Source: Arcobacter sp. (GTDB lineage: Bacteria > Campylobacterota > Campylobacteria > Campylobacterales > Sulfurimonadaceae). Taken from it: a stretch of 32,000 bases of DNA. Positions within the stretch are counted from its first letter, which is position 1. Each line of letters opens with the position of its first letter. Location: contig JAGXFN010000010.1 in NCBI GenBank assembly GCA_024637195.1, forward strand, positions 136,847-168,846. The letters run 5' to 3'. This document shows positions 6,948 to 29,804 of the stretch, piece after piece. The notes under the pieces were generated by a model that made no database searches, was not told the DNA's origin, and saw nothing but the letters and a program-made list of their open reading frames with translations. A program made the position numbers and the translations under genes.

Positions 6948-6963
6948 GTTGCAAATCCTGTCG

Positions 6964-16342: not shown

Positions 16343-16587
16343 ATATTTTTCCCCAACCATACATAATCTTTGTACAGAACATACAGTATAGATAGGAAAT
16401 ATCCAAAAAATATCAACATACTTAAAAATTCTATCATAACGCGGTAAGAGTTATAGCTTTCAAATTCTCCAACAAATATGTAATAGTCTATTTTTGTTAA
16501 AAAAAAATCATACATATCTAATATTTCATTGCAAATATTAGTATACAAGAAATAACAAATACTGTGTTTTAGATTGATAGTCTGCAT
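16339..16587 (-). other. 82-aa ORF, probably a remnant of a duplicated upstream gene rather than a functional gene
   Basis: Its C-terminus FGYFLSILYVLYKDYVWLGK nearly repeats the C-terminus of the 357-aa protein at 17633-18706 (FGYFLSMVYVLYKDYVWLGK). The rest has no recognisable similarity. Confidence 0.3.
16346..16408. repeat. Copy A of a duplicated gene junction (3' end of upstream ORF plus RBS of acyltransferase)
   Basis: A hand-made ungapped alignment to 17643-17705 gives 51 of 63 identical positions. The core is CCCAACCAyACATAATCTTTrTACArAACATA. Confidence 0.8.
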
Positions 16588-16590
16588 GAA

Positions 16591-17640
16591 TTATCCAATC
16601 TTAGGTACATATATTTTTTTACCAGTCATCGTATTATAAACAAAGACTTCAATATATTTATGGACAATATAAACTAACACACTAGTAAAAGTCACAGTCA
16701 ATAGAATAAATAGTATACTTAAAAACAAAATATTATCACAACAGCTTTGTACTTTTTGTGTTAATATCCTTGAAACTAGATAGCTATAAGGATGAGCTAA
16801 ATAAAAAGTATAGCTTACAGTTCCTAACGTCAGCCACAATTTACTATTAAAATATTTTGATAATAATTTTTCATTCTGGATAAATAAAAACATAAAAATA
16901 GAAAAAGAAAGATATAGCATCAGCAAATTATAGTTGTTAAATATATTATTTATGTCATATTTATAATCATAACTGAATGCTAAAAACAAAACTGATATTA
17001 ATGAGACTACTTGTACAGTATTCATAAAAAGATTATTCACAAATCTTTTAAAGTTGTATTTCTGTGACAAGAATGAAACCAAGATACCTAACAAATAAAA
17101 TACAGTAATGGGATAATAATAAGTAAATAAGACCCATCCAATCAAAGCTAAATATGAAACTATATAATTCTTTTGTATCACTATTGGTCTAATTAAAGCA
17201 TAGGTTAATAAATAATACCAAGCCTCATAAGTTATACTCCAGGCATTTGGAGATAAAGGAGGGGTACTAGCAAAAAGATTTAAAAAAAATAAATTCATTA
17301 TTAAAAAAAAAGGATCATTTTTATCTGGTTCTTTTCCTACAACCATATTTAATATAAAAAACAAAACTGTAAATAAAAATGGATATATCCTCCAAAAACG
17401 ATGAAAAAAAAAGTCTTTTATATTTGATTTTGTTGTGGCTATATAAATCACGTATCCACTTAAAAAGAAAAATATCTCAACTCCAAATGTACCTAAGTTT
17501 ATAAGTCCTTTTGTAAGCCAAGTAGAACTTCCATATATATGCTCTGTAAAGCCATCTATCATATGAGCAACAAACACCATTAAAGCAGCTAAACCTCTAA
17601 ATCCGTGCAAAGAAAAATTAAATTGATTGGCTTTACTCAT
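16591..17640 (-). CDS. Acyltransferase family 3 membrane protein (second paralogue)
   Basis: LHGFRGLAALMVFVAHM and EIFFFLSGYV are acyltransferase_3 motifs. I prefer the ATG at 17640 (MSKANQF...) because the upstream extension to 17730 overlaps the preceding gene. Confidence 0.8.
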   Translation of the reverse strand: MSKANQFNFSLHGFRGLAALMVFVAHMIDGFTEHIYGSSTWLTKGLINLGTFGVEIFFFLSGYVIYIATTKSNIKDFFFHRFWRIYPFLFTVLFFILNMVVGKEPDKNDPFFLIMNLFFLNLFASTPPLSPNAWSITYEAWYYLLTYALIRPIVIQKNYIVSYLALIGWVLFTYYYPITVFYLLGILVSFLSQKYNFKRFVNNLFMNTVQVVSLISVLFLAFSYDYKYDINNIFNNYNLLMLYLSFSIFMFLFIQNEKLLSKYFNSKLWLTLGTVSYTFYLAHPYSYLVSRILTQKVQSCCDNILFLSILFILLTVTFTSVLVYIVHKYIEVFVYNTMTGKKIYVPKIG

Positions 17641-18706
17641 GTAGTTTTCCCAACCACACATAATCTTTATACAAAACATATACCATTGATAAAAAATATC
17701 CAAAATACCCATCTGTAAAACTTTCTTCAAATGATTTTGAAACTTTTTTCAAATTCTTCAGACTTGGATATTCTTTACTTATTTTTTTTGATAATATCAT
17801 ATGAAGTTTATGATAATTTGGAGCTGCCAGTCTAAAATGATTTGATATATTACTAACTTTATCTAAAGAATAAAAACTCCAAACTCCATTAAAATCATAT
17901 TGTGAAACTATATTATCTAATGTAGTCAACATCTCATCTAGTAATCTTTCTGTCTCTTTACTTTTGGCAATTTTATTATATTCCATTAAACCTATCAAAG
18001 AGAACATATAACCATTTAATACATGAATTGAGTTGCTTTTTTTTGGGTATTCTTCAAAGAAATACCCATATTTTGTTTGTTGACATATACTTGAGTTACT
18101 ATCTTTGTAAAAGGCTTTTATCGCTTTGTTCATTGTTTCTATATATTTATTATCATCAGTAATACTGTAAGCTCTTGAGAGTATTGACAACCCTAAACCT
18201 TGCGCAAGAGCTGAACACCACCTACCTCTTGGTCCATTTTTTATTTGAAGATCTGTGCTCCAACAGTTGTTCTGATCTAAATTGTTTACAAACCAATCAC
18301 TATTTGCTAAAAATATTTTTTTACTTTCTTCATTTGCTGTAGTTTGATATTGCTTGTAGTATGCGAACGATATAAACGCCTGATTAATAGGATAATAAAC
18401 TTGACTGTCATTTGATATATTAGATTTGTATTTTGTATAGTTTGTATAAAAAATATTATTTTCATCTTTTTCCATAAACAGATGATCTATCTTTTTACAT
18501 TTTTGGTCAATGCAAAAACCCAAAGGGGTAAAAAACCCATTTATATCTATTTGTGTATCTTTTTCGAAAATATTTACTTGTTTTTTTAAATCGCTATAAT
18601 AATCAAATCCGCGATAAACAATACTTATAGCATATATTAAAACTATCATTAATAATGACTTCAGTATTTTATTTTTAATTAACATAAAATTCATTCTTCC
18701 AAACAC
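17633..18706 (-). CDS. Membrane-anchored D-glucuronyl C5-epimerase-like protein
   Basis: It has an N-terminal signal anchor (ILKSLLMIVLIYAISIVY). The motif WCSALAQGLGLSILSRAY resembles the remembered W-x-S-A-M-A-Q-G-x-x-I-S-x-L-x-R-A-Y signature of the C5-epimerase C-terminal domain family. The start is uncertain: GTG at 18706, or ATG at 18694 or 18685. Confidence 0.45.
   Translation of the reverse strand: MFGRMNFMLIKNKILKSLLMIVLIYAISIVYRGFDYYSDLKKQVNIFEKDTQIDINGFFTPLGFCIDQKCKKIDHLFMEKDENNIFYTNYTKYKSNISNDSQVYYPINQAFISFAYYKQYQTTANEESKKIFLANSDWFVNNLDQNNCWSTDLQIKNGPRGRWCSALAQGLGLSILSRAYSITDDNKYIETMNKAIKAFYKDSNSSICQQTKYGYFFEEYPKKSNSIHVLNGYMFSLIGLMEYNKIAKSKETERLLDEMLTTLDNIVSQYDFNGVWSFYSLDKVSNISNHFRLAAPNYHKLHMILSKKISKEYPSLKNLKKVSKSFEESFTDGYFGYFLSMVYVLYKDYVWLGKLHE
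17643..17705. repeat. Copy B of the duplicated gene junction
   Basis: See copy A. This copy lies at the junction of the C5-epimerase-like gene and the acyltransferase gene. Confidence 0.8.
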
Positions 18707-19703
18707 TACTCATTCCTTTGTTCGTTAGTTTTATCACATTATTATAGTTATTGAATATGTTAAAATTTTTAGATATAAATTTTTCATAATTCAACCTCTT
18801 GATATCTTCAAAGTCAAAAATCTCTATTTCCAACTCTCTTAATTCAAACGAAGTACTTGTACCTTTTTTTACAAAAACTTTTTTACCTAAAAGAATAGCA
18901 TTAACGAGTGTTCCTACACCCTCTTGTCTATCATTAGCATATAGGACAATATCCATTCTTCCCAAAAATTCTAAATATTGTTCCATACTCATAAAGTCTC
19001 TAATCAATATTATTTTTTTATCACCAAAAACTTTTTTTGCTTTTTTAATTATTTCATCATGTCTGTTCGTATAAGAACCATAAGAGAATGGGAAGTATAT
19101 CTTTATATTTTCTTCATTTTTATAAATACTTAAAACATCGATAGCCTCTTCAAAATTATTTGTTAACTCTGCAGAGTTTCCCAACAGAATATTTATAGTA
19201 GAATCTTCTTTTTTAATTTTATTAATTTCATCTATTTTATCCCAATTGATTGGTATAGGGTGAAAAAGCTGTTTGTATAAGGCTTTATCGTTAATATTTT
19301 TAAAATTCAAACAATCGTATTTAAATCCATAAACAAAGTCGATTTTTTTTGAAGCCTGCTTTTTTATGTAGTTATACACATTATGAAAAAATGACTCTTG
19401 TTTTGTAGGATACAGATCTCCGCCCCAGATAATCCATTTTATATTTTTTGTATTAACTAAACCCAAGTATAAGAATATCCACACAAATGGATTAAATTGA
19501 CCATGTAAAACAATAGTATTTTTATAAGATTTCAAAACGAATGCAATCGCAATTGCTAATCTACTATTATATAAATAACATCCATAACAATATTTTTCAT
19601 TAGACAAATATTGTATTTTAGAAGAATCAACACCAATTTTTTCTAGAAAATCAATCAATACTTTGTTATGATGTTTGATATTCGATGTAAAGAAATGCAT
19701 CAT
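18675..19703 (-). CDS. wecF: TDP-Fuc4NAc:lipid II 4-alpha-L-fucosaminyltransferase (GT56, WecF-like)
   Basis: It aligns with remembered E. coli WecF: HHN..(V)L.F, HGQFNP..W, W...IWG.DLY, ILLGNS, R(Q)EG(I/V)GTL. The start is within ATGATG at 19698-19703, overlapping the wzxE stop. Confidence 0.8.
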   Translation of the reverse strand: MMHFFTSNIKHHNKVLIDFLEKIGVDSSKIQYLSNEKYCYGCYLYNSRLAIAIAFVLKSYKNTIVLHGQFNPFVWIFLYLGLVNTKNIKWIIWGGDLYPTKQESFFHNVYNYIKKQASKKIDFVYGFKYDCLNFKNINDKALYKQLFHPIPINWDKIDEINKIKKEDSTINILLGNSAELTNNFEEAIDVLSIYKNEENIKIYFPFSYGSYTNRHDEIIKKAKKVFGDKKIILIRDFMSMEQYLEFLGRMDIVLYANDRQEGVGTLVNAILLGKKVFVKKGTSTSFELRELEIEIFDFEDIKRLNYEKFISKNFNIFNNYNNVIKLTNKGMSSVWKNEFYVN

Positions 19704-20965
19704 ATTCCAACCTTCCAATGCTTTTGAGATAGCAAAAATAAAACATAAGTTAAGACAAACAGTACAAAATAAGTTATAGCATATGAATAAGTAATTCCTA
19801 TAATATTAAACTTATCAATCATATAAATTGATAAAAAATAAAACAATATACCTTGTATGATTTCAACAACTATATAAATAACCATTAATGATTTTGCGAT
19901 TATTAAGTATCCAAATACAAATAGCAATACTTTAAAAAAATCACCAATAAATTGATATAGAAACAATTGTTCCATATATATAAACTCTTTTGAGAATAAT
20001 ATAATTATCAAATATTCTCTCATCAAATAAGCAAGACTCAACAATAAAAAGCTTAATATAGCCATTTGAAATAACGTTTTATGAATATTCTTTTTAATCT
20101 CATATGAAGAAATTTGCTTAGATAATGTTGGTAGCAGATATGCACTCAACAATATTGAAACAAACTGTCCGTATGTTTCAGAAACCTTTACAATTCCTTG
20201 CCAATAGCCAACATAATCCCAACCTAATCTTAGTGATATGTAGTTTCTAAGTAGTATTTGTACTATTTGAACGGCAAAAATAGTCACTAATGCCATTATT
20301 GTATACTTTAATAATTTCTTTATAATTTTAAAATTGATTTTAAGATTTTCCAAAATAGATTTATTTAGATACCCCTTTTTAAATATAAAATATGATGAAG
20401 GAAAAATTATAAAAGAATAAAATACACCCAGTCCTATAATTATGAGAGGAAATGTACCTACATATGCAAAACATACAAAAACAATCAACCCCGTAATGTA
20501 TGAAACAATCAGAACTAAAGCATTTGTTAAAATATCTTTATGCCCGTTTATGATTGATAAAAAAAAGTAACCAAATCCAATAAAATTTTGCAATATAGCC
20601 GTAACTATAATATAGTCACTATATTTATTGGTCAAAAATAAAAAATTAGATATTTGTACTGAAAAAACAATAAAAATAGCCATAATTATGAAAGAGGATA
20701 TAGATATCAATAGTATAGACATCTGTAAATATGCTTTTTGTACATCTAGATTATCAGCAAATTCAGCTGTATACTTAGTCACACCGCTTAATATTCCGCC
20801 AGCAGATATGACTGTGAAAATTGTCAATAAACTCATAAATTGACCGATTTTACCCAATCCTTCGGCACCAAGGTTTAGTGCAACTATTTTAATAACCAGT
20901 AGACCGGCTAAAATCTTCACAATTGTTGCAATACCTATGATCACAGAACTTTTGAAAAAATGCAT
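19700..20965 (-). CDS. wzxE: Lipid-linked repeat-unit flippase (WzxE-like)
   Basis: The N-terminus FKSSVIIGIATIVKILAGLLV...GAEGLG...GVTKYTAEF aligns residue for residue with E. coli WzxE (AKASLWTAASTLVKIGAGLLV...GPAGLG...GVTKYVAQY). The motifs YLLPTLS and GYLIIAKS are also conserved. I prefer the ATG at 20965, 1 nt after the wecE stop. Confidence 0.8.
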   Translation of the reverse strand: MHFFKSSVIIGIATIVKILAGLLVIKIVALNLGAEGLGKIGQFMSLLTIFTVISAGGILSGVTKYTAEFADNLDVQKAYLQMSILLISISSFIIMAIFIVFSVQISNFLFLTNKYSDYIIVTAILQNFIGFGYFFLSIINGHKDILTNALVLIVSYITGLIVFVCFAYVGTFPLIIIGLGVFYSFIIFPSSYFIFKKGYLNKSILENLKINFKIIKKLLKYTIMALVTIFAVQIVQILLRNYISLRLGWDYVGYWQGIVKVSETYGQFVSILLSAYLLPTLSKQISSYEIKKNIHKTLFQMAILSFLLLSLAYLMREYLIIILFSKEFIYMEQLFLYQFIGDFFKVLLFVFGYLIIAKSLMVIYIVVEIIQGILFYFLSIYMIDKFNIIGITYSYAITYFVLFVLTYVLFLLSQKHWKVGI

Positions 20966-20966
20966 C

Positions 20967-22097
20967 TTAATTAAAAAAGCCATTGATATTATAAGAGATA
21001 AGTTCTATGTCAGATTCTTTTAGCTCATAATACATCGGTAACCTAATCAGCCTCTCGCTCTCACATGTAGTAAATCTATCTTCGCCTTCAAATCTGCCAA
21101 ATGTAAAACCGGCAGGCGCAGAGTGAAGCGGGACATAGTGAAACACTGCCAAAATATCATTTTGTTTCAGATGCTCGAGAAGGGCTGTTCTCACATCTAA
21201 ATCTTTTACTTTCAGATAAAACATATGCGCATTTTGAACACATCCATCAGGAATAGTCGGCAACTCTATCAAGCCTTTTTCTTCAAGTTTTTTCAGAGCG
21301 TCATAATACTTTTGCCAAGTAGTTAGCCTGTATTGATTTATCTCATCGGCTTTTTCAAGATTTCCCCATAAATAAGCAGCACTAACATCATTCATAAGGT
21401 AACTGCTCCCTACATCTACCCAGGAGTATTTATCTACCATTCCACGGAAAAATAGACTTCTGTTTGTCCCTTTTTCTCTGATGATCTCGGCTCGTTGAAT
21501 AAACTTTTCATCATTGATGATAAGAAGTCCGCCTTCTCCTGCACTTGTGTAGTTTTTGGTCTCATGAAAACTAAATGCCCCAAGATGCCCAATGGTTCCT
21601 AGCGCTTTGCCTTTGTAGCTGCTCATCATCCCTTGAGCGGCATCTTCTACGACAAAAAGATTATGCCTGCCGGCGATATCCATAATAGCATCCATCTCAC
21701 ATGCCACGCCTGCATAGTGTACGGGAGCAATTGCTTTTGTCTTCTCTGTGATAGCTTGTTCTATCTTAGTTTCATCTATGTTTAGAGTGTCTGGGCGAAT
21801 ATCGACAAAGACTATCTTGGCGCCACGAAGGACAAAGGCATTTGCGGTACTTACAAATGTATAACTAGGCATGATGACCTCGTCACCTTCTTTTATGTCC
21901 AAAAGTATCGCTGCCATTTCAAGCGCATGGGTGCACGACGTAGTTAAAAGTGCTTTTTTACACTGCAACTTTTCTTCAAACCATTGATGGCAGCGTTTTG
22001 TAAACTCTCCATCACCTGAGATTTTATTGCTTCTTATTGATTCTAAAACATATTTTTCTTCATTGCCCGTAAATGGCGGTTTGTTAAATGATATCAT
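20967..22097 (-). CDS. wecE: dTDP-4-amino-4,6-dideoxygalactose transaminase (WecE/RffA)
   Basis: There are long identical runs with remembered E. coli WecE: GDEVIMPSYTFVSTANAFVLRGAKIVFVD.RPDT.NIDET, PVHYAGVACEMD.IM, NLFVVEDAAQG, FSFHETKNYT, IIREKGTNRS.FFRG.VDKY.W, VQNAHMFY. Confidence 0.92.
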   Translation of the reverse strand: MISFNKPPFTGNEEKYVLESIRSNKISGDGEFTKRCHQWFEEKLQCKKALLTTSCTHALEMAAILLDIKEGDEVIMPSYTFVSTANAFVLRGAKIVFVDIRPDTLNIDETKIEQAITEKTKAIAPVHYAGVACEMDAIMDIAGRHNLFVVEDAAQGMMSSYKGKALGTIGHLGAFSFHETKNYTSAGEGGLLIINDEKFIQRAEIIREKGTNRSLFFRGMVDKYSWVDVGSSYLMNDVSAAYLWGNLEKADEINQYRLTTWQKYYDALKKLEEKGLIELPTIPDGCVQNAHMFYLKVKDLDVRTALLEHLKQNDILAVFHYVPLHSAPAGFTFGRFEGEDRFTTCESERLIRLPMYYELKESDIELISYNINGFFN

Positions 22098-22194
22098 TTT
22101 TCACTTTTCTCACTTTATCTTTGATTTACATAACCAAGTTGTTTTAGTATTTCTGTATTCTCACCAAAAGCTTTCTACTTTTTTATTAAGATAA

Positions 22195-24135
22195 TTAATC
22201 ATACTGACTTTCTATATCAGCAATATCATAATAAAACTCACCATCTTTCCAGCCAAGAGTTCCTGCTTCTTGCCATGGTTTGTTCAATCCATTTTTTAAC
22301 AAATCTTTTTCCCATTCATCTGGAACTTCATTGTATTTGTATTTAACATTGAATTTAGCATTAGTTAAATTAATGTTATTTTTATAAGCCCAAAAATAAA
22401 TATATTTTTGTACTCCTTCAGCATATTGCTTGGCATCAAAGTTTTTATTACTAACCCTAAAACTATAATTTACCCATTGTCTACCAGTGCCATACCAAGA
22501 CGCTTGACCTTTTTCATTTATTATTGGTAAAAAAACTTCCTTGTTTTTGTCTTGATAGGTAATTGCTATAGTGTGGTTGTAATTCTTAAAATGATAATCC
22601 ATAAATACTGCGTGTTGAGATAGACCTGTAAACGGATAAAATATTATTTTGTACAAGCTTGCCCCCCCATTTACATACTTCAAAATACTCTCAGGGACAT
22701 TGACTTTTGTGTAAATATGATTCATCAAAAGTGAACTTTGGATCATGATAATTTGGGAGAACACCAACCAAAAAATAAATAAAGCAGTAGAAAATATTTT
22801 TACTGTTTTCAAATCCAAGTTTTGTAATATTTTAATTTCGGAATCATCTTGTTCCACATACATGCTTGAAACATTTGGCATTGCACAAGTCTCTTCTGTG
22901 CAACCATAAGTAATTCTATGTTTTGCTATATAACCATAGATCTTCGCACCAATCGATTTTATAAAAGGAATATAGAGTAAAAGACCAAGTGGTTTAAAGA
23001 TCCATACTTTATTTAATACTTTTACATAAGTATCTATCCCGCTGAATATATTTCCTTTAATGTCTACACTATATACATTATCTAAAAGTTCTTGCATGGG
23101 TATATTTTTAAGCAGTTCGTTTTTATGAGCTTCTTGTTGAACCGGTAGAAATAAAATATTTCTGCCATTGTCAAAATATTGAACTATGACTCTAAGTCTG
23201 TTGCATAAAGGGCAGTTTTGATCATAGTAAAATGTCAAAGATGGTTGTTTTTTACTCTTTAAGAACTTATTGTATATTTTCATATAAAATGCTGATGGGA
23301 TAATCCCTACATACAAAGCTACCATAGCCAAAGCAAACCAGGGGATTGGGAATGCTAAAGCAATTCCAATATGTAAACCAATCCCAACTAAAAGATAAAA
23401 TACTTTAGTTTTTTTGATCCATACAAAAAATATATATGTCAATTGAAAAAACAATGTCAAATAACCTAAAAATCTTATCAAGTACTCTTGATTTAAAATA
23501 AAACTCAAATCAAGCCATGTTGCCCATGGCAAGGAAGATGGAAGCCAAACGCCTAATCCATCCAACCACATTGGAGAATAAAGTTTATAGAAAATAGAAT
23601 CAAAATATATCAAACCCGCTGCAATTATCAAAACTATATAATTCAAACTTGAGACTGTTTTTTTTGGGCTATGCTCATACTTTGTGTTTGAGTATTTTAT
23701 TTTTTCAAGAAGATTATCAAAAGAGAGTCTTCTTGAAATAGGCATAAACATGAGTAAAAAAGCCACAGGAATAAGCTCTTTATCTACATGGTAGTCGAAA
23801 TCATTTCCTTGCCCGGTAAACTGAAAAGTGAATCCTAAAAAAAGAACTGTAAAAAGGTAGTTTATAATAGTTGCTTTTTTAGTAAACAAACCTATTGTTA
23901 TGAACACTATTGAAATCAACCAAATAATTAACATCGGATGTACCATAAAAGATGCTTCTTGAACATACGGTATTGGATCAAAAATCAAATGCCTAAAATA
24001 AAATATTTGCAATACTTCAGCAAAAACGACTATCCCGTAAACGATTCGGAATAAAGCAAGAGCCAAACCCGACTCTTCTTGTTCATACAGTTTTTTAATA
24101 AAGTTATAATACTTAGTTGGCCAACTCATCTTCAT
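22195..24135 (-). CDS. Fusion membrane protein: HTTM (vitamin-K-dependent gamma-carboxylase-like) domain + DCC/DUF393 thiol-disulfide oxidoreductase-like domain + TM + unknown about 180-aa C-terminal domain
   Basis: Residues about 20-285 are polytopic and open with LALALFRIVYGIVVFAE, like HTTM domains. Residues about 299-411 read TFYYDQNCPLCNRL...ILFLPVQ...IPFIKSIGAKIYGYIAKHRITYG, matching the DCC family pattern (CxxC, then P...Y..(I/V)A..R...G). One more TM segment (about residues 445-466) follows, then a Tyr/Trp/Lys-rich soluble domain. Confidence 0.6.
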   Translation of the reverse strand: MKMSWPTKYYNFIKKLYEQEESGLALALFRIVYGIVVFAEVLQIFYFRHLIFDPIPYVQEASFMVHPMLIIWLISIVFITIGLFTKKATIINYLFTVLFLGFTFQFTGQGNDFDYHVDKELIPVAFLLMFMPISRRLSFDNLLEKIKYSNTKYEHSPKKTVSSLNYIVLIIAAGLIYFDSIFYKLYSPMWLDGLGVWLPSSLPWATWLDLSFILNQEYLIRFLGYLTLFFQLTYIFFVWIKKTKVFYLLVGIGLHIGIALAFPIPWFALAMVALYVGIIPSAFYMKIYNKFLKSKKQPSLTFYYDQNCPLCNRLRVIVQYFDNGRNILFLPVQQEAHKNELLKNIPMQELLDNVYSVDIKGNIFSGIDTYVKVLNKVWIFKPLGLLLYIPFIKSIGAKIYGYIAKHRITYGCTEETCAMPNVSSMYVEQDDSEIKILQNLDLKTVKIFSTALFIFWLVFSQIIMIQSSLLMNHIYTKVNVPESILKYVNGGASLYKIIFYPFTGLSQHAVFMDYHFKNYNHTIAITYQDKNKEVFLPIINEKGQASWYGTGRQWVNYSFRVSNKNFDAKQYAEGVQKYIYFWAYKNNINLTNAKFNVKYKYNEVPDEWEKDLLKNGLNKPWQEAGTLGWKDGEFYYDIADIESQYD

Positions 24136-24794
24136 CCTTTTAATTGAATCCCATTATCTTGATGTGTAGATTTTACTTTTGCTGGTATCCCTGCATACAT
24201 AGTATATTTTTTGGAATCATTTGGCATTAATGTTCCTGCCGCTATTAATGTTTCATCTTCTATGACTAATTTTTGTAATATGGTAGATGAAAACCCTATA
24301 AAACAATTATTTTTAACTTTAGTAAACCCACCTATAAGACTATTTGCAGCAATAAAGCAATCATTAAAAATCTCTGCATGATGACATATAATACTATTTG
24401 TATTAATTATATTATTATTACCAACTTTTGCAAAAGGTTCTAGTACGGCATTATGCAATATCGCATTGTTATCACCTATAATATTGCTCTCATCTACATT
24501 GGCTTTTGGGCTTATAAAGCTAACAAACTTATAACCTTTTGCTTTAACTTTTTCATACAATAATTTTCTTGCTCTCATGTTTTTATAACCTACAGCAACA
24601 AAAAATTGATAATTATCTATGTCGTATAATTCTTTTATATCTTCAAACGCTATTAATGGTTTATTTAAAAATGTTTTGGAGTTAATATATTCTTTATCTA
24701 CACAAAAAGCAACTACTTCATATTTGCTATAAACCGTAAAATAATAATGCATTAATTCTGCGAAATCACTATTACCATAAATAATAATCTTCAT
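24132..24794 (-). CDS. NeuD/PglD-family hexapeptide-repeat sugar acyltransferase (probable amino-sugar N-acetyltransferase, functional analogue of WecD)
   Basis: The 220-aa protein has an N-terminal Rossmann-like KIIIYGNSDFAE and a C-terminal left-handed beta-helix with hexapeptide periodicity (IGDNNAI, VGNNNII, IAANSLIGG, IGFSSTI). Confidence 0.75.
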   Translation of the reverse strand: MKIIIYGNSDFAELMHYYFTVYSKYEVVAFCVDKEYINSKTFLNKPLIAFEDIKELYDIDNYQFFVAVGYKNMRARKLLYEKVKAKGYKFVSFISPKANVDESNIIGDNNAILHNAVLEPFAKVGNNNIINTNSIICHHAEIFNDCFIAANSLIGGFTKVKNNCFIGFSSTILQKLVIEDETLIAAGTLMPNDSKKYTMYAGIPAKVKSTHQDNGIQLKG

Positions 24795-25492
24795 ACATTC
24801 TGCTTGTAAATAACTTTTTTACAATCTTCTAAGTGCTTGATTTTCACTAATGAGTTTGCTGAAACGTATCTGTCATTTTCGTCAAGTAATATAGCATTGA
24901 TACCTATACTGTCGCAAGGTAAATAATCCAATAAATAACTATCCCCAATAAAGTAACTGTTTTTGGATTCAATATCATGTTTTTGCAAAGGCAACTTAAA
25001 AAACTCTCTATTTGGTTTTTCAAGCCCAACTTCTTGTGATACAAATATAGAGTCAAAGTTCTCTATAATGTCCATTTTCTCTAAAACGGCATAAAGTCTT
25101 GTATCAAAATTAGAAACCAAGCTTATTAAACAGCCCTCCGCTTTTAACTCCTCTAGCAAATTTTTAACCCCAGATTTAAGTATCCAATGCTGACCATGTT
25201 CTTTAAAGTAATCAAAAAGCTTTGATGTATCCATAAGATGTGCTAAGCCAAGCAAAGAGACAATATTTTGATTAAAATCATCATAAAAGTTTTTTTTGTC
25301 TTTTAAATCTTGGATTTTTACTGAACTGTAAAATACTAAGTTCGTTACATAATGATATGTTTCACTTATTTTTTCTAGCGAAATTTCTATATCCAATTCA
25401 CTTGAAATATAACTTTGCAACAACTCTTCTTTAGAAGGTGACAACTTCGCTATGGTATCAGCAAAATCAAACATTACTAACTTTTGATTCAT
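24791..25492 (-). CDS. HAD-superfamily hydrolase, subfamily IA (probable phosphatase)
   Basis: Four HAD motifs are present: motif I VMFDFADT, motif II LVSNF, motif III GLEKPNREFF, motif IV IGDSYLLDY. Confidence 0.7.
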   Translation of the reverse strand: MNQKLVMFDFADTIAKLSPSKEELLQSYISSELDIEISLEKISETYHYVTNLVFYSSVKIQDLKDKKNFYDDFNQNIVSLLGLAHLMDTSKLFDYFKEHGQHWILKSGVKNLLEELKAEGCLISLVSNFDTRLYAVLEKMDIIENFDSIFVSQEVGLEKPNREFFKLPLQKHDIESKNSYFIGDSYLLDYLPCDSIGINAILLDENDRYVSANSLVKIKHLEDCKKVIYKQNV

Positions 25493-26487
25493 ATGAGTGC
25501 ACTCCTCTTTTTTAAATCATATATATCCGATTCTGTATATACTACTTCTTCGTTATATCTTGTAAAAAACATTTTCATTGTATTCTCTGATGGTTTCAAA
25601 GGTTCTTGTAATACAACCTCTTTTATATAGGCTTCAGGAACATTAAAGACTTCTCTCATTGCCCCTGTTGTTCCCGAAAGCCTCCCATTAAATTCAAATG
25701 GCAATAATCTACCTTCTGCATAAACAGCTTGAATATTTAAATATTTCATGTTCATTTTCTTTGCAATAGTTATTAGTTTGGTTTCTAACTCTTTATCTAA
25801 AATTCTTTCTGCTTGGTACGTAGATCCACACTTTAGCGTTCTTTTAAGAATATATATACCTTTAATCTCTCCATCATTGCCTATATAAATACCACTTGTG
25901 ATTTCATTTGAGATATCTAAATATTCTTGTAATAACCATGACGAATTTCCTACAAAGGGTTTTAATTCTTCGAAAGATGTAACTTTAATGATGTTTTTCG
26001 CGCCATTGCCACTCTTGGTTTTCAGTATATATGGAAAAGGATTTTGTTGCAAAAACTTTTCCATATCATCGCTATCCATACTTATCGTTTGGGGAGCTGT
26101 AAAACTATTTTCAATTAAAAATTTATATGTCAGATACTTATCATCACATATTTTTACTTTTGAATATTCTTCTATAAAAACTTTTGTATTTGTATGTTTT
26201 TCTATTTCATCTTTAAACTTGGATATTTTTAAAAGAGATGAATCAACCGTTGGAAAATAAACGTCTATCTGATACTTATTTAAAAAATCAATTAAAAAAT
26301 CTATGAAAGATTTATCACTCACAAATGGAAAAATAAAAGAGTTCTTGATTTTATATAGCCAACTGCTTGAAGTGCTGATACAAGAAGCATAGAGTTCTAA
26401 GTTTAACTTAGAATCTAATAGAGATTTCAAAACCCCTTGTCCTACATCTCCTCCCGCGCCGTCTACAAGAACATTGATTTTTTTCAT
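25489..26487 (-). CDS. ATP-grasp enzyme (carboxylate-amine ligase type)
   Basis: The 332-aa protein has PYILKTKSGNGAKNI (Lys plus Gly-rich loop), LLQEYL (hinge) and FEFNGRLSG (E-x-N metal site), in the layout typical of ATP-grasp ligases. Confidence 0.7.
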   Translation of the reverse strand: MKKINVLVDGAGGDVGQGVLKSLLDSKLNLELYASCISTSSSWLYKIKNSFIFPFVSDKSFIDFLIDFLNKYQIDVYFPTVDSSLLKISKFKDEIEKHTNTKVFIEEYSKVKICDDKYLTYKFLIENSFTAPQTISMDSDDMEKFLQQNPFPYILKTKSGNGAKNIIKVTSFEELKPFVGNSSWLLQEYLDISNEITSGIYIGNDGEIKGIYILKRTLKCGSTYQAERILDKELETKLITIAKKMNMKYLNIQAVYAEGRLLPFEFNGRLSGTTGAMREVFNVPEAYIKEVVLQEPLKPSENTMKMFFTRYNEEVVYTESDIYDLKKRSALI

Positions 26488-27149
26488 ATATATCTTCCTG
26501 TAAGTTTATAAATGTCATCCGCTATTTTTTCTGGTTTATTTAATGCCCCAAAATTATTATCCAGTTGTTTGGACTCTATTAAGTTGCTTTGCATCTCTGT
26601 CTGCATTCTACCTGGATCAAAATTGTCTACGTAGAGAGCTTTTGGATTATTTTTTTCTTCTTCTTTTAGAATTTCTATAAATCTGTGCATGGAAGCCTTA
26701 GATGCACTATAGAGTGCTAGTTTAGTATTAGTCATAAATGCTGCTCCCGAAGTGATATTTATGATTACAAATTGTTTTTGACTTTTTAAAATATTTAATA
26801 TTATTTTTGATGGATTGATATAATTTGTATATATAGATTCTTCTATATCTTTTTCATTGATACAATCGATGTTCGATATAGGATCAATAGTGGAAGCATT
26901 AGATATAAAAATAATTTTGTTACACTTGTTAATTAAATCGCAAAATTTTTTTATGTCAATTTCTCTTGAAGACAAATCTAATGTAATCCCATTTTTTGTT
27001 TCATGTGTTCGATTTATTTCTAAAATATTAAAATTCTGAAATACTTTTTTTAAGCTTTTTCCTAAACCTTTTGTCGTTCCTGTTATAACAACTAAAGTTT
27101 TCTCCTTATTTATCAAATTATTAGATTTCACTAATTTAAAACCCCGCAA
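26484..27149 (-). CDS. Short-chain dehydrogenase/reductase (classical SDR)
   Basis: It has the cofactor motif VVITGTTKGLGKS (TGxxxGxG), ISNAS, and the catalytic YSASK (YxxxK). Its start overlaps the wecC stop by 19 nt. Confidence 0.8.
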   Translation of the reverse strand: MRGFKLVKSNNLINKEKTLVVITGTTKGLGKSLKKVFQNFNILEINRTHETKNGITLDLSSREIDIKKFCDLINKCNKIIFISNASTIDPISNIDCINEKDIEESIYTNYINPSKIILNILKSQKQFVIINITSGAAFMTNTKLALYSASKASMHRFIEILKEEEKNNPKALYVDNFDPGRMQTEMQSNLIESKQLDNNFGALNKPEKIADDIYKLTGRYI

Positions 27150-28351
27150 AAGTCCAAATCAGTCTGCATTCTCAACTTTTTAAACTCTTTGTGAGCTACT
27201 AAAAAAGTGACTATGTGTGCTTGTTCTAGTGCTTCTTTGTACTCAACTATCTCAAACTCTTTGTGAGACTCTATGTTTGGCTCTACTGCTAAGACATCTA
27301 TGCCATCGGCTTTGAGTCTTCTTGTGATGTAAAGTGCCGGCGACTCTCTAAGGTCGTCTATGTTAGGTTTGAATGCCAAGCCCATGCAGGCTACTTTTGC
27401 TTTTCTGCCATTTTCTTTTTCGTAAACTAAGACAGCGTTTTTTATCTTTTCTATCGCCCATTCAGTTTTGTAGTTGTTGACTTCTCTGGCTGTTCGTATC
27501 ATTTTTGCTGTTTCTCCGCCTGCATGTACGATGAACCATGGATCAACGGCTATACAGTGTCCACCTACGCCTGCACCTGGACTAAGGATGTTTACCCTCG
27601 GGTGTCTGTTTGCAAGGCGAATGAGCTCCCATACATTGATACCAAACTTATCACAAAGCATACTAAGTTCATTGGCAAATGCTATGTTCGTATCTCTAAA
27701 TGAGTTTTCAGTAAGTTTTGCCATTTCTGCTGTTTTTGCATCTGTTTCTAGCACTTCGCCAGCCACAAATTCTCGGTAAAATTCAGCAGTCAACCTTGTG
27801 GCTTCGTCTGTTGTACCGCCAACTATACGGTCATTTTCCACAAGCTCTCGCATGATATGGCCAGGGAGAACTCTCTCAGGACAATGTGCTACATGGATTT
27901 TAGACTGCCGTACTTCGCTCACAGTACCAAAAAGTTCAGGGCGAAGTTCTTGTAATGTTTCTTCTACTAAGTCTGTTGTGCCCACGGGTGAGGTTGACTC
28001 TAGTATGACAATATTTCCCTCTTTTACATAAGGAGCTATGGCTTTTGTGGCACTTACGACATAGTCTATATTTGGTACAAAGCCATCATGAAAAGGAGTG
28101 GGCACCGCTATGACAAAAATATCTGCCTCAGCTGGCTTTGTGTCTGCTTTGAGGTTACCACTGTTGACTGCTGCTTTTACAAAAGTATCTAGTTCTGGCT
28201 CGACTATGTGAATCTCACCACGGTTGATGATATCTACAGTACTTTGTACCACATCCACCCCGTGTACGTCATAGCCTCGATTTGCAAGTAGTGCTGAAGT
28301 AGGTAGACCGATATATCCAAGTCCTATTACACATATTTTTCTTTTTGTCAT
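27131..28351 (-). CDS. wecC: UDP-N-acetyl-D-mannosamine dehydrogenase
   Basis: It matches remembered E. coli WecC closely: VIGLGYIGLPT, INRGEIHIVEP, IAVPTPF, ILESTSPVG(T/S)T, CPERVLPG, TAEM.KLTENSFRD.NIAFANELS, INVWELIRLANRHPRVNIL.PG.GVGGHCIAVDPWFIV, GLAFKPNIDDLRESPA. Confidence 0.92.
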   Translation of the reverse strand: MTKRKICVIGLGYIGLPTSALLANRGYDVHGVDVVQSTVDIINRGEIHIVEPELDTFVKAAVNSGNLKADTKPAEADIFVIAVPTPFHDGFVPNIDYVVSATKAIAPYVKEGNIVILESTSPVGTTDLVEETLQELRPELFGTVSEVRQSKIHVAHCPERVLPGHIMRELVENDRIVGGTTDEATRLTAEFYREFVAGEVLETDAKTAEMAKLTENSFRDTNIAFANELSMLCDKFGINVWELIRLANRHPRVNILSPGAGVGGHCIAVDPWFIVHAGGETAKMIRTAREVNNYKTEWAIEKIKNAVLVYEKENGRKAKVACMGLAFKPNIDDLRESPALYITRRLKADGIDVLAVEPNIESHKEFEIVEYKEALEQAHIVTFLVAHKEFKKLRMQTDLDFCGVLN

Positions 28352-29493
28352 TATTTTTCTTCCTTCAGAAATTCAACAATTTTCTCACAAGCGTTACCAT
28401 CGCCATAGGGGTTATGAGCTTTAGACATTTTTTCATATTCATTTACATCATCAAGCAATTTTTGTGCTTCTTTGATGATCGTTTTCTTGTTTGTCCCTAC
28501 AAGCTTGACTGTCCCTGCTTCTAGTGCTTCCGGTCGCTCAGTCGTGTCTCTCATTACAAGTACTGGTTTGCCTAGGGAGGGTGCTTCTTCCTGTACTCCG
28601 CCACTGTCTGTGATGATAAAGTGAGACTTATTCATCAGATACAAAAATGTTTCATATTGGAGCGGTTCGATGAGGTGAACATTTGCTACATCTGAGAGTA
28701 AATCTTTGACTGGTTTTTGTACGTTTGGATTTAAGTGCACAGGGTAGACTATGTCTACTTCTGGATTGTTCAGCGCTATTTCTTTTAGTGCTTCACAGAT
28801 ATTGATAAAACCTTGGCCGAAGTTTTCTCTTCTGTGTCCTGTGACTAATATGATTTTTTTATTATCGTTTAGTTTATATTGAGAGTTTATGGATCGAATT
28901 ATTTTATTTTTTAATTCTTCTTTATTTTCGATTTTATCTAAAGCCAGAAAGAGTGCATCTATGACAGTATTGCCCGTTACTATGATGTTTTTTTCTTCTT
29001 TATTTTCTCTTAGTAGGTTGTCTTTGCTTGTTTGAGTAGGCGCGAAATGGTAACTTGCTAACACCCCCGTGATCTGTCTGTTTGCTTCTTCTGGCCATGG
29101 GCTGTAGATGTCATGCGTTCGTAGACCTGCTTCCACGTGTCCTACTTCTATCTTTTGGTAAAATGCAGCAAGTGATGTGGCGCTGGTAGTAGTAGTGTCA
29201 CCATGCACGAGGACAATATCTGGCTTAAAATCTGCCAAGACATCTTTCATCCCAAGCAATACATTCGTGGTGATATCGTACAAATCCTGGCCCGCTTTCA
29301 TAATGTTTAGATCATAATCAGGTCTGATCTCAAACATCTCCAGAACTTGATCTAGCATCTCTCTGTGCTGCGCTGTGACGCAGACTTTTGTTTCAAATGC
29401 ATCCGTGTGTTGTTGAAACGCTTTGACTAGCGGTGCCATCTTGATCGCTTCGGGACGTGTGCCGAATACTAATAGAACTTTTTTCAATGACAT
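28351..29493 (-). CDS. wecB: UDP-N-acetylglucosamine 2-epimerase (non-hydrolysing)
   Basis: The motifs [94 protein letters not shown] match WecB/MnaA. It overlaps the wecC start by 1 nt. Confidence 0.92.
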
Positions 29494-29804
29494 TTCCCAC
29501 TCTCAACTCTGTATCGCTCAAGCTCCAAAACCAGCAGATCATACTCCGCTTTTTTTCTCGCGATGAACTTCGTTGTCAGTTCTATCTTCTCTTTTAGACC
29601 TTGCTCTGTAAGTAGGTATCTGTATTGGTTTTTTTGTTTGTTTGCAAAGAAGTTTTCGGCTTTGATGAGGCTTTTGTCGATAAGTGCATTGAGTGCATAG
29701 TTGACCTTGCCGATGCTGATGCCGAGCTCAGTTGAGAGTATCTTCTGTGTTTTTAGTGACTCGATGTTTCGCAAAATAGACAGTGTCAACTCTTCGTTTT
29801 GCAA
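29484..29804 (-). CDS. EPS-associated MarR-family transcriptional regulator
   Basis: The 106-aa protein has [25 protein letters not shown]...NK..Y.YLLT..G..EK..LT..F..RK..EY..L..E, which matches the remembered small EPS-locus MarR subfamily. It is the first gene after a 233-nt gap. Confidence 0.75.

What the first reader, a model, noticed from the sequence alone, without database searches (positions are those of the whole stretch)
22195..24135. HTTM (gamma-carboxylase-like) + DCC thiol-disulfide oxidoreductase-like fusion protein encoded inside the glycan operon
This 646-aa ORF combines four parts:
- a polytopic HTTM-like domain (the family of vitamin-K-dependent gamma-glutamyl carboxylase, with largely unknown bacterial functions);
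- a DCC/DUF393 domain with an intact CPLC motif (codons at 23203-23214);
- another TM helix;
- an about 180-aa Tyr/Trp-rich domain that I cannot assign.
Its start overlaps the stop of the NeuD-type acetyltransferase gene (ATGA), so it is an integral operon member, not a passenger. It sits directly between the tailoring module and wecE. A redox-capable, quinone-enzyme-like membrane protein has no role in standard Wzx/Wzy pathways. It is my best candidate for an undescribed activity here, for example a redox-coupled modification of the lipid-linked glycan or of a partner protein.
Basis: partly seen in the sequence, partly recalled or inferred. Interest (0 to 1): 0.7.

Follow-up and report, generated by a model that had tools for sequence, protein, structure and literature searches.

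The report
Carboxylase-like membrane enzyme in glycan locus
This gene encodes a bacterial membrane protein built like the human vitamin-K-dependent carboxylase, and it travels across several phyla with the genes for one unusual amino sugar of surface polysaccharides, which suggests an undescribed chemical modification of a glycan.

Summary
Window 22195-24135 (minus strand) is a 646-aa ORF. It has an HTTM membrane core, a DCC1-like domain with an intact DxxCPLC motif, one more TM helix and a 180-aa Tyr/Trp-rich domain that matches nothing known.

The predicted structure (pLDDT 86.8) significantly matches only human gamma-glutamyl carboxylase (GGCX) in the PDB. A weak profile alignment puts K184, W190 and H116 on GGCX K218, W223 and H160. 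K184 is invariant in every relative examined.

The protein belongs to an uncharacterised family of at least 460 clusters at 50% identity. In 65 Bacteroidota and Campylobacterota loci it usually sits beside a WecE-type transaminase (57) and a NeuD/VioB-type acyltransferase (56). This holds whichever route incorporates the sugar.

The DCC domain is cytoplasmic and optional. Of 83 complete family representatives, 35 lack it and 23 lack its cysteines.

My best reading is a quinol/O2-driven, GGCX-type enzyme that modifies the N-acylated Fuc4N sugar at the periplasmic face. The chemistry, possibly carboxylation, is inferred and not shown. No paper in the searchable library links this family to glycans.

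The parts
22195..24135 (-). Whole ORF, 646 aa from Met1 (644 aa if Met3 at 24129 is the start); stop codon at 22195-22197
   Evidence: an identical 644-aa protein, P0001, is in the public collection
23266..24078 (-). HTTM membrane core, aa 20-290. Eight TM helices, N-terminus in the cytoplasm.
   Evidence: Pfam HTTM E 5e-6. Hydropathy and positive-inside loop charges. DSSP of the model. Foldseek hits only GGCX.
23584..23586 (-). K184 codon, aligned to the GGCX catalytic base K218. W190 (23566-23568) aligns to W223.
   Evidence: hhalign. K184 is invariant in 88/88 and 83/83 relatives. Same Lys/Trp/Phe triad as described for a Firmicute HTTM-DCC protein.
23788..23790 (-). H116 codon, aligned to GGCX H160, the substrate-carboxylate pocket
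   Evidence: hhalign. PSSM top window is GGCX 155, p 0.023. Conserved in 79/83 representatives, but Gly in the Methylococcaceae clade.
22906..23238 (-). DCC1-like (DUF393) thioredoxin-like domain, aa 300-410. Predicted cytoplasmic, inserted between TM8 and TM9.
   Evidence: Pfam PF04134 E 5.9e-16. Lys-rich flanking linkers. Absent from about 500-aa family members.
23203..23214 (-). C308-P-L-C311, the CxxC of the DxxCxxC motif
   Evidence: Intact in only 25 of 48 insert-bearing representatives.
22885..22902 (-). Second cysteine pair, C412-T-E-E-T-C417, in the low-confidence linker after the DCC domain
   Evidence: Invariant in alignment A1. pLDDT 55-74 in this stretch. Lost together with the DCC domain.
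22741..22812 (-). TM9, aa 442-465, with invariant Q461. Carries the chain from cytoplasm to periplasm.
   Evidence: The best-scoring GGCX window is 361, which is GGCX TM9, but p is only 0.10.
22573..22632 (-). Post-TM9 motif FTGLSQHAVFMDYHFKNYNH (aa 502-521) with near-invariant H508 and H515
   Evidence: The best-scoring GGCX window is 391-410, the membrane-embedded TMD-PBD linker that lines the GGCX active site. Right place, but the score alone is not significant, p 0.24. Conservation.
22198..22728 (-). Family-specific periplasmic C-terminal domain, aa 470-646, mixed alpha/beta, Tyr/Trp-rich
   Evidence: No Pfam hit. No PDB fold hit, best E 0.26. No profile match to the GGCX lumenal domain. 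460 representative clusters carry it.
24132..24794 (-). NeuD/PglB/VioB-type hexapeptide N-acyltransferase, the conserved cassette partner
   Evidence: Beside the target in 56 of 84 loci.
20967..22097 (-). WecE, dTDP-4-amino-4,6-dideoxygalactose transaminase, the conserved cassette partner
   Evidence: NCBIfam 647-672 bits, above the cut-offs. Beside the target in 57 of 84 loci at 53-86% identity.
24791..27149 (-). HAD hydrolase (24791-25492), PylC-like ATP-grasp ligase (25489-26487) and SDR (26484-27149): one of three alternative ligase modules of the cassette
   Evidence: Found in 20-21 of 84 loci. Replaced by a Ddl-like ATP-grasp_4 (19 loci) or by WbqC (12 loci).
18675..20983 (-). WecF-like GT56 (18675-19718) and Wzx flippase (19700-20983): the route that incorporates the sugar in this locus
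   Evidence: GT56 is present in 19 of 65 loci.

Best explanation
SHOWN. [quoted passage not shown] It has nine TM helices with the N-terminus in the cytoplasm. The residues aligned to the GGCX catalytic lysine (K184), quinone-ring tryptophan (W190) and substrate-pocket histidine (H116) lie at the periplasmic side and are near-invariant across the family. A family-specific 180-aa periplasmic domain follows TM9, in the position of the GGCX lumenal substrate-recognition domain. A DCC thioredoxin-like domain is inserted in the cytoplasmic TM8-TM9 loop.

The gene is the signature membrane component of a horizontally mobile cassette. The cassette consists of a WecE transaminase, a NeuD/VioB-type N-acyltransferase and one of three ligase modules (SDR + PylC-like ATP-grasp + HAD, a Ddl-like ATP-grasp, or WbqC). 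It builds an N-acylated, probably aminoacylated, 4-amino-4,6-dideoxygalactose for O-antigen, capsule or ECA-like glycans.

INFERRED. Like GGCX, the enzyme binds a membrane quinol. K184 deprotonates the quinol, which then reacts with O2 to form a strong base at the periplasmic face. That base abstracts a weakly acidic C-H from the N-acyl or aminoacyl substituent of the Fuc4N residue, after the sugar has crossed the membrane on its lipid carrier or as polymer. The carbanion most likely captures CO2 (carboxylation). Simple C-H activation such as epimerisation or oxygenation is not excluded. The periplasmic domain selects the glycan substrate. The DCC domain is an accessory cytoplasmic redox module, for example for recycling the oxidised quinone or for regulation. 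It is not part of the catalytic core.
For: Fold:
- The full-length AF2 model is confident (pLDDT 86.8, pTM 0.87).
- In the PDB it significantly matches only human GGCX: 15 entries at E 1e-6 to 1.5e-4, prob 1.0 (a 16th GGCX entry at E 0.029). The next non-GGCX hit is at E 0.44.

Active site:
- hhalign places LAxFR on GGCX 62-68, H116 on H160, Y177/F178 on Y211/F212, K184 on K218 and W190 on W223.
- K218 is the catalytic base. H160 and W223 line the glutamate and vitamin K pockets.
- Conservation among 83 complete representatives: K184 83/83, F267 83/83, W190 82/83, H255 82/83. The same holds across three clades.
- The same Lys/Trp/Phe triad was placed beside a co-folded menaquinol in a Firmicute HTTM-DCC plus DUF5819 complex.

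Topology:
- Loop charges follow the positive-inside rule.
- The best GGCX windows for TM9 and for the post-TM9 motif fall at GGCX TM9 and at its active-site linker.

Coupling to the sugar:
- Among 84 loci, WecE is adjacent in 57 and the LbH acyltransferase in 56, on the same strand and within 6 kb. This spans Campylobacterota and Bacteroidota.
- The transaminases pass the WecE equivalog cut-off.
- The incorporation route varies: GT56 in 19 loci, an ArnC-like GT2 in 14, never both, neither in 32, with Wzx or Wzm/Wzt. The target stays constant.
- The ligase modules resemble amino-acid ligases such as Ddl, BacD, PylC and dapdiamide synthase. Amide-linked N-acetyl amino acids on O-antigen sugars are known.

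DCC is accessory:
- It is absent in 35 and Cys-less in 23 of 83 representatives.
- A DCC-less member sits in the same cassette.
Against: - No experiment or structure shows quinol binding, O2 use or any activity for this family.
- Sequence similarity to GGCX is remote. hhalign probability is only 7% against a single-sequence template. A family profile finds no GGCX chain in the PDB by sequence. The TM6-TM8 register, and with it the equivalence of F267 to the CO2-stacking F299, was not recovered.
- The C-terminal domain shows no detectable similarity to the GGCX lumenal domain or to DUF5819.
- A Methylococcaceae clade (31-33% identity) lies in a different context, KdoO - nitroreductase - target - LpxK - KdsB, and has Gly at the H116 position. 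The substrate therefore cannot be the same everywhere. On my own knowledge, these organisms use ubiquinone-type rather than naphthoquinone cofactors.
- The SDR + ATP-grasp + HAD module occurs without the target in other bacteria.
- I know of no glycan structure with a carboxylated acyl group assigned to such a locus.
Confidence: 0.4

Rival explanations
1. The protein is the periplasmic sugar transferase of a three-component glycan-modification system, playing the role of a GT-C enzyme such as ArnT. An ArnC-like GT2 loads the cassette sugar onto undecaprenyl phosphate. A small EamA or GtrA protein flips it. The target then transfers it to LPS or the glycan. The HTTM tunnel would bind the polyprenyl tail instead of a quinone tail.
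For: Fourteen of 65 loci carry a membrane-anchored ArnC/PgfS-like GT2 inside the cassette. L085 reads EamA(120 aa) - target - WbqC - GT2 - LbH - DegT, with no recognisable GT-C. In Gallionellaceae-type loci the same SDR/ATP-grasp/HAD/GT2/GtrA set lacks the target. There, unannotated polytopic proteins of 538-621 aa stand in its place.
Against: Nineteen loci, including this window, use a cytoplasmic WecF-like GT56 and have no ArnC-like GT2. Another 32 loci have neither. The fold matches GGCX and not GT-C; PglB scores only E 0.57, prob 0.09. The invariant residues are those of the GGCX quinol site. The 621-aa protein of L087 is unrelated to the family.
Confidence: 0.15
2. The protein is a quinone-coupled thiol-disulfide oxidoreductase analogous to DsbB/DsbA or VKOR-Trx. 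The DCC CxxC, helped by the C412/C417 pair, exchanges electrons with a membrane quinone held by the HTTM domain. It thereby oxidises or reduces a partner protein of the glycan pathway.
For: A strong DCC1-like hit with an intact DxxCxxC. A second invariant Cys pair among close relatives. Two Cys pairs plus a quinone site recall the VKOR logic (my own knowledge).
Against: The DCC domain is predicted to be cytoplasmic, across the membrane from the conserved K184/W190 site. Of 83 complete family representatives, 35 lack the domain and 23 lack the cysteines, while the HTTM and C-domain residues stay invariant. A DCC-less member occupies the same cassette position.
Confidence: 0.1
3. The protein is a non-enzymatic membrane component: a flippase, exporter or scaffold for the lipid-linked amino sugar. 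It would use a GGCX-like fold that has lost its chemistry.
For: It is a polytopic membrane protein with no demonstrated activity. The Pfam HTTM score is below the cut-off. Small flippase genes are found in only a few loci.
Against: The polar residues aligned to the GGCX active site (K184, H116, H255) and the C-domain histidines are retained strictly over large evolutionary distances. That pattern is typical of catalysis. Many loci already encode Wzx or Wzm/Wzt.
Confidence: 0.1
4. The gene is a passenger unrelated to the polysaccharide, inserted by chance into a low-GC, horizontally acquired locus.
For: The locus is compositionally foreign, 24-34% G+C against about 50% in the flanks.
Against: The gene has the same composition as its neighbours. 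Its start overlaps the upstream gene by 4 nt or lies 2 nt after it. It keeps the same neighbours in about 57 of 65 loci across different phyla.
Confidence: 0.03

Closest known systems
[quoted passage not shown]
   Same: It is the only significant fold match. Both have nine TM helices followed by an extracytoplasmic domain. The LAxFR motif, H160/H116, YF211-212/YF177-178, K218/K184 and W223/W190 align. TM9 and the post-TM9 linker map to the corresponding GGCX segments.
   Different: There is no detectable similarity in the lumenal propeptide-binding and Arch domains. A DCC domain is inserted in the TM8-TM9 cytoplasmic loop. The genomic context points to a glycan and not to a Glu-rich protein. 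Sequence similarity is too low for HMMER to link the two directly.
Firmicute two-gene system: HTTM-DCC1-like protein (447 aa) plus a TM-anchored DUF5819 protein (bioRxiv 10.64898/2026.08.19.745780)
   Same: Same order of parts: HTTM, then DCC, then a TM helix, then an extracytoplasmic domain. Same conserved Lys/Trp/Phe triad near a modelled menaquinol. That system was also proposed, without experiment, to be GGCX-like.
   Different: Here all parts are fused in one chain. The C-terminal domain does not match the DUF5819 model. The context here is a polysaccharide locus, which the preprint does not describe.
MloH, the vitamin-K-dependent carboxylase orthologue of malonomycin biosynthesis (Law et al. 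2018, as cited)
   Same: It is a bacterial HTTM enzyme fused to a C-terminal extracytoplasmic region. It acts on a non-protein, small-molecule-type substrate (an aspartyl residue), so the chemistry is not restricted to Gla proteins.
   Different: MloH belongs to a PKS-NRPS cluster and has no DCC domain. I had no MloH sequence and could not compare it here.
DCC/DUF393 family (Pfam PF04134; B. subtilis YuxK, plant DCC1)
   Same: A clear Pfam hit and an intact DxxCxxC motif.
   Different: Those are stand-alone soluble proteins. Here the domain is an insertion in a membrane enzyme, is followed by a second Cys pair, and is dispensable in much of the family.
Enterobacterial common antigen (ECA) locus, wec genes
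   Same: The window encodes WecB, WecC, WecE, WecF-like GT56, WecG, Wzx, Wzz, RmlB and RmlD. This predicts a ManNAcA- and Fuc4N-containing repeat unit.
   Different: A Bac_transf initiating transferase replaces WecA. An LbH acyltransferase replaces the GNAT WecD. The locus adds the SDR/ATP-grasp/HAD module, two AT3 acyltransferases, an AsnB-like amidotransferase, a C5-epimerase-like protein and the GGCX-like protein.

Membership tests
HTTM / GGCX-like (Pfam PF05090) | Match to the HTTM profile at or above the gathering score | tested here: inconclusive
   26.7 bits against a cut-off of 27.7, E 5e-6, covering profile positions 8-254 of 259. Family members pass, for example P0136 at 34.8 and P0154 at 29.4 bits, and many have precomputed hits.
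HTTM / GGCX-like | Fold of the GGCX transmembrane domain | tested here: met
   Foldseek against the PDB gives 15 GGCX entries at E 1e-6 to 1.5e-4, prob 1.0, TM 0.32-0.40 over the whole chain. Nothing else scores below E 0.4.
Vitamin-K-dependent carboxylase (functional class) | Catalytic lysine equivalent to GGCX K218, with the neighbouring quinone-ring Trp (W223) | tested here: met
   hhalign aligns K184 to K218 and W190 to W223. K184 is invariant in 88/88 and 83/83 relatives. The alignment itself has low probability (7%).
Vitamin-K-dependent carboxylase (functional class) | Substrate-pocket His equivalent to H160 | tested here: met
   H116 aligns to H160. PSSM top window is GGCX 155, p 0.023. 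Conserved in 79/83 representatives, but Gly in the Methylococcaceae clade.
Vitamin-K-dependent carboxylase (functional class) | CO2-trapping Phe (F299) and the Met401/Met402 linker | tested here: inconclusive
   F267 is invariant (83/83) and M512 lies in the post-TM9 motif. However, the TM7-8 register was not recovered by hhalign or by the PSSM scan. The linker match is in the right place but is not significant (p 0.24).
Vitamin-K-dependent carboxylase (functional class) | Lumenal propeptide-binding domain | tested here: not met
   No profile similarity (hhalign prob 0.08%). The isolated C-domain model has no GGCX hit.
Vitamin-K-dependent carboxylase (functional class) | Quinol-, O2- and CO2-dependent carboxylation with epoxide formation | not testable with these tools
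   Requires biochemistry.
DCC / DUF393 thiol-disulfide oxidoreductase (PF04134) | Profile match above cut-off and a DxxCxxC motif | tested here: met
   60.1 bits against 27.8. D305-x-x-C308-P-L-C311.
DCC / DUF393 thiol-disulfide oxidoreductase (PF04134) | Thiol-disulfide exchange activity | not testable with these tools
   No solved DCC structure was found by sequence. Activity has not been assayed.
DUF5819 (partner of HTTM-DCC proteins) | Match of the C-terminal domain to the DUF5819 profile | tested here: not met
   None of 19 family C-domains hits DUF5819 at E<=10. Only the topology is equivalent (a TM helix plus an extracytoplasmic domain).
GT-C glycosyltransferases (ArnT/PglB type) | GT-C fold | tested here: not met
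   The best GT-C hit, PglB 5ogl, scores E 0.57, prob 0.09.

The most novel reading that the evidence does not exclude
This family is the first glycan-directed member of the vitamin-K-dependent carboxylase superfamily. At the periplasmic face it uses membrane quinol, O2 and CO2 to carboxylate the N-acyl or N-acetyl-aminoacyl group on a Fuc4N residue of a lipid-linked or nascent polysaccharide. The product would be a malonyl- or Gla-like dicarboxylate on the cell surface. The DCC domain would act as a built-in cytoplasmic reductant that recycles the oxidised quinone, the role VKOR plays in animals.
Probability: 0.2. Interest if true: 0.9.

Novelty: new variant of a known kind. Interest (0 to 1): 0.7.

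Why it matters
Vitamin-K-dependent carboxylation is known for animal Gla proteins and for one antibiotic pathway. Bacterial HTTM proteins are numerous and almost entirely uncharacterised.

This family has a sharply defined and testable substrate candidate: one amino sugar made by a three- to six-gene cassette. It also comes with natural variants with and without the DCC domain, and with conserved residues to mutate.

If the chemistry is confirmed, three things follow:
- Quinol-driven C-H activation would extend to surface polysaccharides.
- A widespread orphan gene in O-antigen and capsule loci of Bacteroidota, Campylobacterota and methanotrophs would be explained.
- A new surface modification relevant to serotyping, phage receptors and cation binding would be revealed.

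Even if the chemistry differs, the family is a conserved, unannotated step in glycan biosynthesis.

Tried and rejected
- Sequence search of the PDB with the full-length and the HTTM-only family profiles found no GGCX chain, only chance ArnA or thioredoxin fragments.
- The C-terminal domain was tested against Pfam with 19 members at E<=10, against the PDB by Foldseek with a separate model (pLDDT 83), and against the GGCX lumenal region by hhalign. All were negative, so I dropped the idea that it is a recognisable DUF5819 or GGCX lumenal homologue.
- An ungapped register H255=H287, F262=F294, F267=F299 looked attractive. Neither hhalign nor a PSSM scan supported it, so I keep it only as a possibility.
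- I considered that the 621-aa unannotated membrane protein of L087 might be a diverged family member. hhalign says it is not.
- The idea that the family is restricted to menaquinone-using phyla was dropped after finding a Methylococcaceae/Methyloversatilis clade.
- Literature searches for HTTM or DUF393 with polysaccharide or O-antigen, and for WbqC, gave nothing relevant.
- The source organism could not be named. The identical proteins come from unnamed assemblies.
Full report
1. THE OBSERVATION

The ORF lies at window 22195-24135 on the minus strand and is 646 aa long. Pfam gives two hits:
- DCC1-like (PF04134) at aa 303-409, E 5.9e-16, 60.1 bits against a cut-off of 27.8.
- HTTM (PF05090) at aa 25-275, covering nearly the whole profile (8-254 of 259), E 5e-6. 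Its 26.7 bits are 1 bit below the gathering score of 27.7.

Relatives of the protein do pass the HTTM threshold. A further TM helix spans aa 442-465. It is followed by a 177-aa domain with 10% Tyr, 3.4% Trp and 5.7% Phe that matches no Pfam family.

One detail needs correcting. The ATGA overlap assumes Met1 is the start. Met3 has a better-placed AAAGGA, and gene callers give 644 aa. The start then lies 2 nt after the upstream stop codon. The two genes are tightly coupled in either case.

2. THE SURROUNDINGS

The gene sits in a 20-kb, all-minus-strand locus with 24-34% G+C, between flanks of about 50% G+C. The locus encodes, in order:
- RmlD, RmlB, WecB, WecC
- an SDR, a PylC-like ATP-grasp ligase, a HAD hydrolase
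- a NeuD/VioB-type hexapeptide acyltransferase
- the target
- WecE (NCBIfam 647-672 bits, above the cut-offs), Wzx, a WecF-like GT56
- a C5-epimerase-like protein, two AT3 acyltransferases
- a 470-aa polytopic protein with no family match (probably Wzy)
- an AsnB-like amidotransferase, WecG, a Bac_transf initiating transferase, Wzz

This is an ECA-like gene set with extra tailoring genes.

3. THE FAMILY

The whole 4-part protein is conserved end to end.
- It is 63-81% identical to proteins of Arcobacter, Aliarcobacter and Sulfuricurvum.
- It is 35-44% identical over 98% of its length to proteins of many Bacteroidota.
- It is 29-33% identical to proteins of Methylococcaceae and Methyloversatilis.

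All are annotated only as 'DCC1-like thiol-disulfide oxidoreductase family protein'. A pattern-limited scan found relatives in 129 of 185,579 species genomes. An exhaustive profile search with the C-terminal domain found 460 clusters at 50% identity, 236 of them below 1e-30.

4. STRUCTURE AND RELATION TO GGCX

The AF2 model of the full protein is confident (pLDDT 86.8, pTM 0.87). Foldseek against the PDB returns only human GGCX cryo-EM structures as significant matches: 15 entries at E 1e-6 to 1.5e-4, prob 1.0. The next unrelated hit is at E 0.44.

GGCX has nine TM helices followed by lumenal domains. Its vitamin K site lies between TM5 and TM8. K218 is the catalytic base, H160, N159 and Y395 form the glutamate pocket, and W223, F286, F294, F299 and M401 surround the quinone ring and CO2.

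HMMER could not link the family to GGCX directly, so I used the human GGCX sequence from memory. It is 758 aa long, and all 37 residues named in the papers fall at the right positions.

hhalign of the family HTTM profile against GGCX gives a 162-column alignment (E 0.0049). The probability is only 7%, because the template is a single sequence. The alignment places:
- LAxFR on GGCX 62-68
- H116 on H160
- Y177/F178 on Y211/F212
- K184 on K218
- W190 on W223

An independent ungapped PSSM scan agrees in part. The best GGCX window for the LAxFR block is 62 (p<0.004). For the H116-D140 block it is 155 (p 0.023). For TM9 it is 361, which is GGCX TM9 (p 0.10). For the post-TM9 motif FTGLSQHAVFMDYHFKNYNH it is 391-410, the membrane-embedded TMD-PBD linker of the GGCX active site (p 0.24). 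The last two fall in the expected places, but their scores are not significant on their own. The TM6-8 register was not recovered.

A 2026 preprint modelled a Firmicute HTTM-DCC protein (447 aa) in complex with a TM-anchored DUF5819 protein. It found the complex GGCX-like, with Lys189, Trp195 and Phe273 beside a co-folded menaquinol. The spacing of these three residues matches K184, W190 and F267 here.

5. TOPOLOGY

Lys/Arg-rich loops alternate with acidic or neutral loops. The N-terminus, aa 82-87, aa 140-159, aa 241-245 and the linker after TM8 are basic. The loops at aa 53-62, 107-120 and 183-219 are not. This gives an N-terminus in the cytoplasm and eight TM helices. The K184/W190 loop faces the periplasm, the DCC domain is in the cytoplasm, TM9 crosses outward, and the C-terminal domain is periplasmic. 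This matches the GGCX arrangement, with the DCC domain as an insertion in the TM8-TM9 cytoplasmic loop.

6. WHAT IS CORE AND WHAT IS OPTIONAL

I examined 83 complete representatives of the family.

| Feature | Count out of 83 |
|---|---|
| K184 conserved | 83 |
| F267 conserved | 83 |
| W190 conserved | 82 |
| H255 conserved | 82 |
| H508 conserved | 81 |
| H515 conserved | 80 |
| H116 conserved | 79 |
| DCC domain absent | 35 |
| Insert of similar length, CxxC cysteines lost | 23 |
| DCC with intact CxxC | 25 |

The members that lack DCC are about 500 aa long and have HTTM, a linker, TM9 and the C-domain. A DCC-less member (P0143) sits in the same cassette. The HTTM site plus the periplasmic domain is therefore the functional core. 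The DCC redox motif is an accessory.

7. THE C-TERMINAL DOMAIN

A separate model of this domain (pLDDT 83) has no significant PDB match; the best hit is E 0.26 to MHC-like platforms. There is no profile similarity to the GGCX lumenal domain and no DUF5819 hit. It is a family-specific domain that occupies the position of the GGCX substrate-recognition domain.

8. GENOMIC COUPLING

I analysed 84 loci by tblastn, by clustering all ORFs within 7 kb, and by Pfam/NCBIfam scans of cluster representatives.

| Neighbour of the target | Loci (of 84) |
|---|---|
| WecE-type transaminase (53-86% identical to the window's, passes the WecE equivalog cut-off) | 57 |
| NeuD/VioB-type LbH acyltransferase | 56 |
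| Epimerase/SDR | 40 |
| AT3 acyltransferase | 28 |
| HAD | 21 |
| PylC-like ATP-grasp | 20 |
| Ddl/BacD-like ATP-grasp_4 | 19 |
| WbqC | 12 |

The recurrent order is: target - [SDR + ATP-grasp + HAD, or ATP-grasp_4, or WbqC] - LbH - (AT3) - WecE.

The route that incorporates the sugar varies among the 65 non-Methylococcaceae loci. Nineteen have a WecF-like GT56. Fourteen have a membrane-anchored ArnC/PgfS-like GT2. None has both, and 32 have neither. Wzx or Wzm/Wzt accompany the cassette. The target therefore follows the sugar, not the assembly pathway.

The Methylococcaceae clade sits in a different but still LPS-related context: KdoO - nitroreductase - target - LpxK - KdsB. It has Gly at the H116 position, which suggests a different substrate. 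The SDR + ATP-grasp + HAD module also occurs without the target, in Gallionellaceae-type loci with GT2, GtrA and unannotated polytopic proteins.

9. MECHANISM

Shown:
- a GGCX-like fold
- retained residues aligned to the quinol site, on the periplasmic side
- a variable cytoplasmic DCC insertion
- tight coupling to the Fuc4N-acyl cassette across phyla

Inferred:
- The enzyme uses quinol and O2, as GGCX does, to generate a strong base.
- That base acts on the acyl or aminoacyl substituent of the Fuc4N residue after export.
- Carboxylation is the most likely outcome.
- The DCC domain assists redox recycling or regulation from the cytoplasm.

The ligase modules resemble amino-acid ligases. Amide-linked N-acetyl amino acids on O-antigen sugars are documented. 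This gives a chemically plausible C-H acid comparable to the Glu or Asp substrates of GGCX and MloH.

10. RIVAL EXPLANATIONS

- A GT-C-like periplasmic transferase in a three-component system. This fits the 14 loci with an ArnC-like GT2, but not this window or the other 51 loci.
- A DCC-centred, quinone-coupled disulfide oxidoreductase. This is contradicted by the topology and by DCC loss across the family.
- A non-catalytic flippase or scaffold. This is hard to reconcile with the invariant polar residues.
- A passenger gene. This is contradicted by the synteny.

11. NOVELTY

The HTTM-DCC architecture is known in databases. One 2026 preprint proposes a GGCX-like role for the two-gene Firmicute version. 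The searchable literature does not link HTTM or DUF393 proteins to polysaccharide loci.

New here are the single-chain family, the optional nature of its DCC insertion, its unique periplasmic domain and its conserved coupling to a Fuc4N-type sugar cassette. I class it as a new variant of a known kind. There is a 20% chance that it represents glycan-directed vitamin-K-type carboxylation, which would be a new category of glycan modification.

Noticed in passing
window 12000-28000 versus 1-8000 and 28000-32000: The polysaccharide locus has 24-34% G+C, while the flanks (urea carboxylase, allophanate hydrolase, DcaP-like porin) have about 50%. The cassette proteins are 55-86% identical to those of Arcobacter and Sulfuricurvum. 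The locus, or at least the cassette, looks horizontally acquired by a host of higher G+C.
   Followed up: partly
window 13932-15344 (-): A 470-aa ORF with no Pfam or NCBIfam match and more than 10 hydrophobic segments. It is probably the Wzy-type polymerase of the locus.
   Followed up: partly
window 17633-18706 (-): A 357-aa protein with a D-glucuronyl C5-epimerase C-terminal domain (E 5e-36). This is an animal heparan-sulfate-type epimerase domain in a bacterial O-antigen-like locus. Its listed GTG start overlaps the next ORF (16591-17730) by about 100 nt, so one of the two starts is probably miscalled.
   Followed up: no
window 12073-13944 (-): An AsnB-like glutamine amidotransferase lies directly upstream of WecG. 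It could amidate the ManNAcA carboxyl group made by WecB/WecC.
   Followed up: no
L057, L062, L066, L068, L072, L073, L078 (Methylococcaceae loci): A diverged clade of the same family (31-33% identity, Gly instead of H116) lies in a conserved block: Kdo hydroxylase (KdoO) - nitroreductase-family protein - target - LpxK - KdsB, or ExbB/ExbD in some loci. The nitroreductase could be a quinone reductase that supplies quinol. The substrate there may be in the LPS core.
   Followed up: partly
L087 946-2562 and 4346-6211; L088 14196-15815: In Gallionellaceae-type loci the SDR/ATP-grasp/HAD/DegT module occurs with an ArnC-like GT2 and GtrA, plus polytopic proteins of 538-621 aa. These have no Pfam match and no relation to the target family. 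They may be unrecognised periplasmic transferases.
   Followed up: partly
window 22885-22902 (-), aa 412-417: A second Cys pair (C-T-E-E-T-C) follows the DCC domain in a low-confidence linker. It is invariant among DCC-bearing close relatives. Together with the CxxC it could form a relay or a metal site. Its role is unknown.
   Followed up: no
L041 and L045: Two ORFs belonging to the target-family cluster lie next to each other in these Bacteroidota MAG loci. This may be a tandem duplication or a gene split by a frameshift.
   Followed up: no
window 24127-24135 (-): The start codon is ambiguous. Met1 gives the 4-nt ATGA overlap. Met3 has the better Shine-Dalgarno spacing and is the start used by public gene calls, giving 644 aa.
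   Followed up: yes
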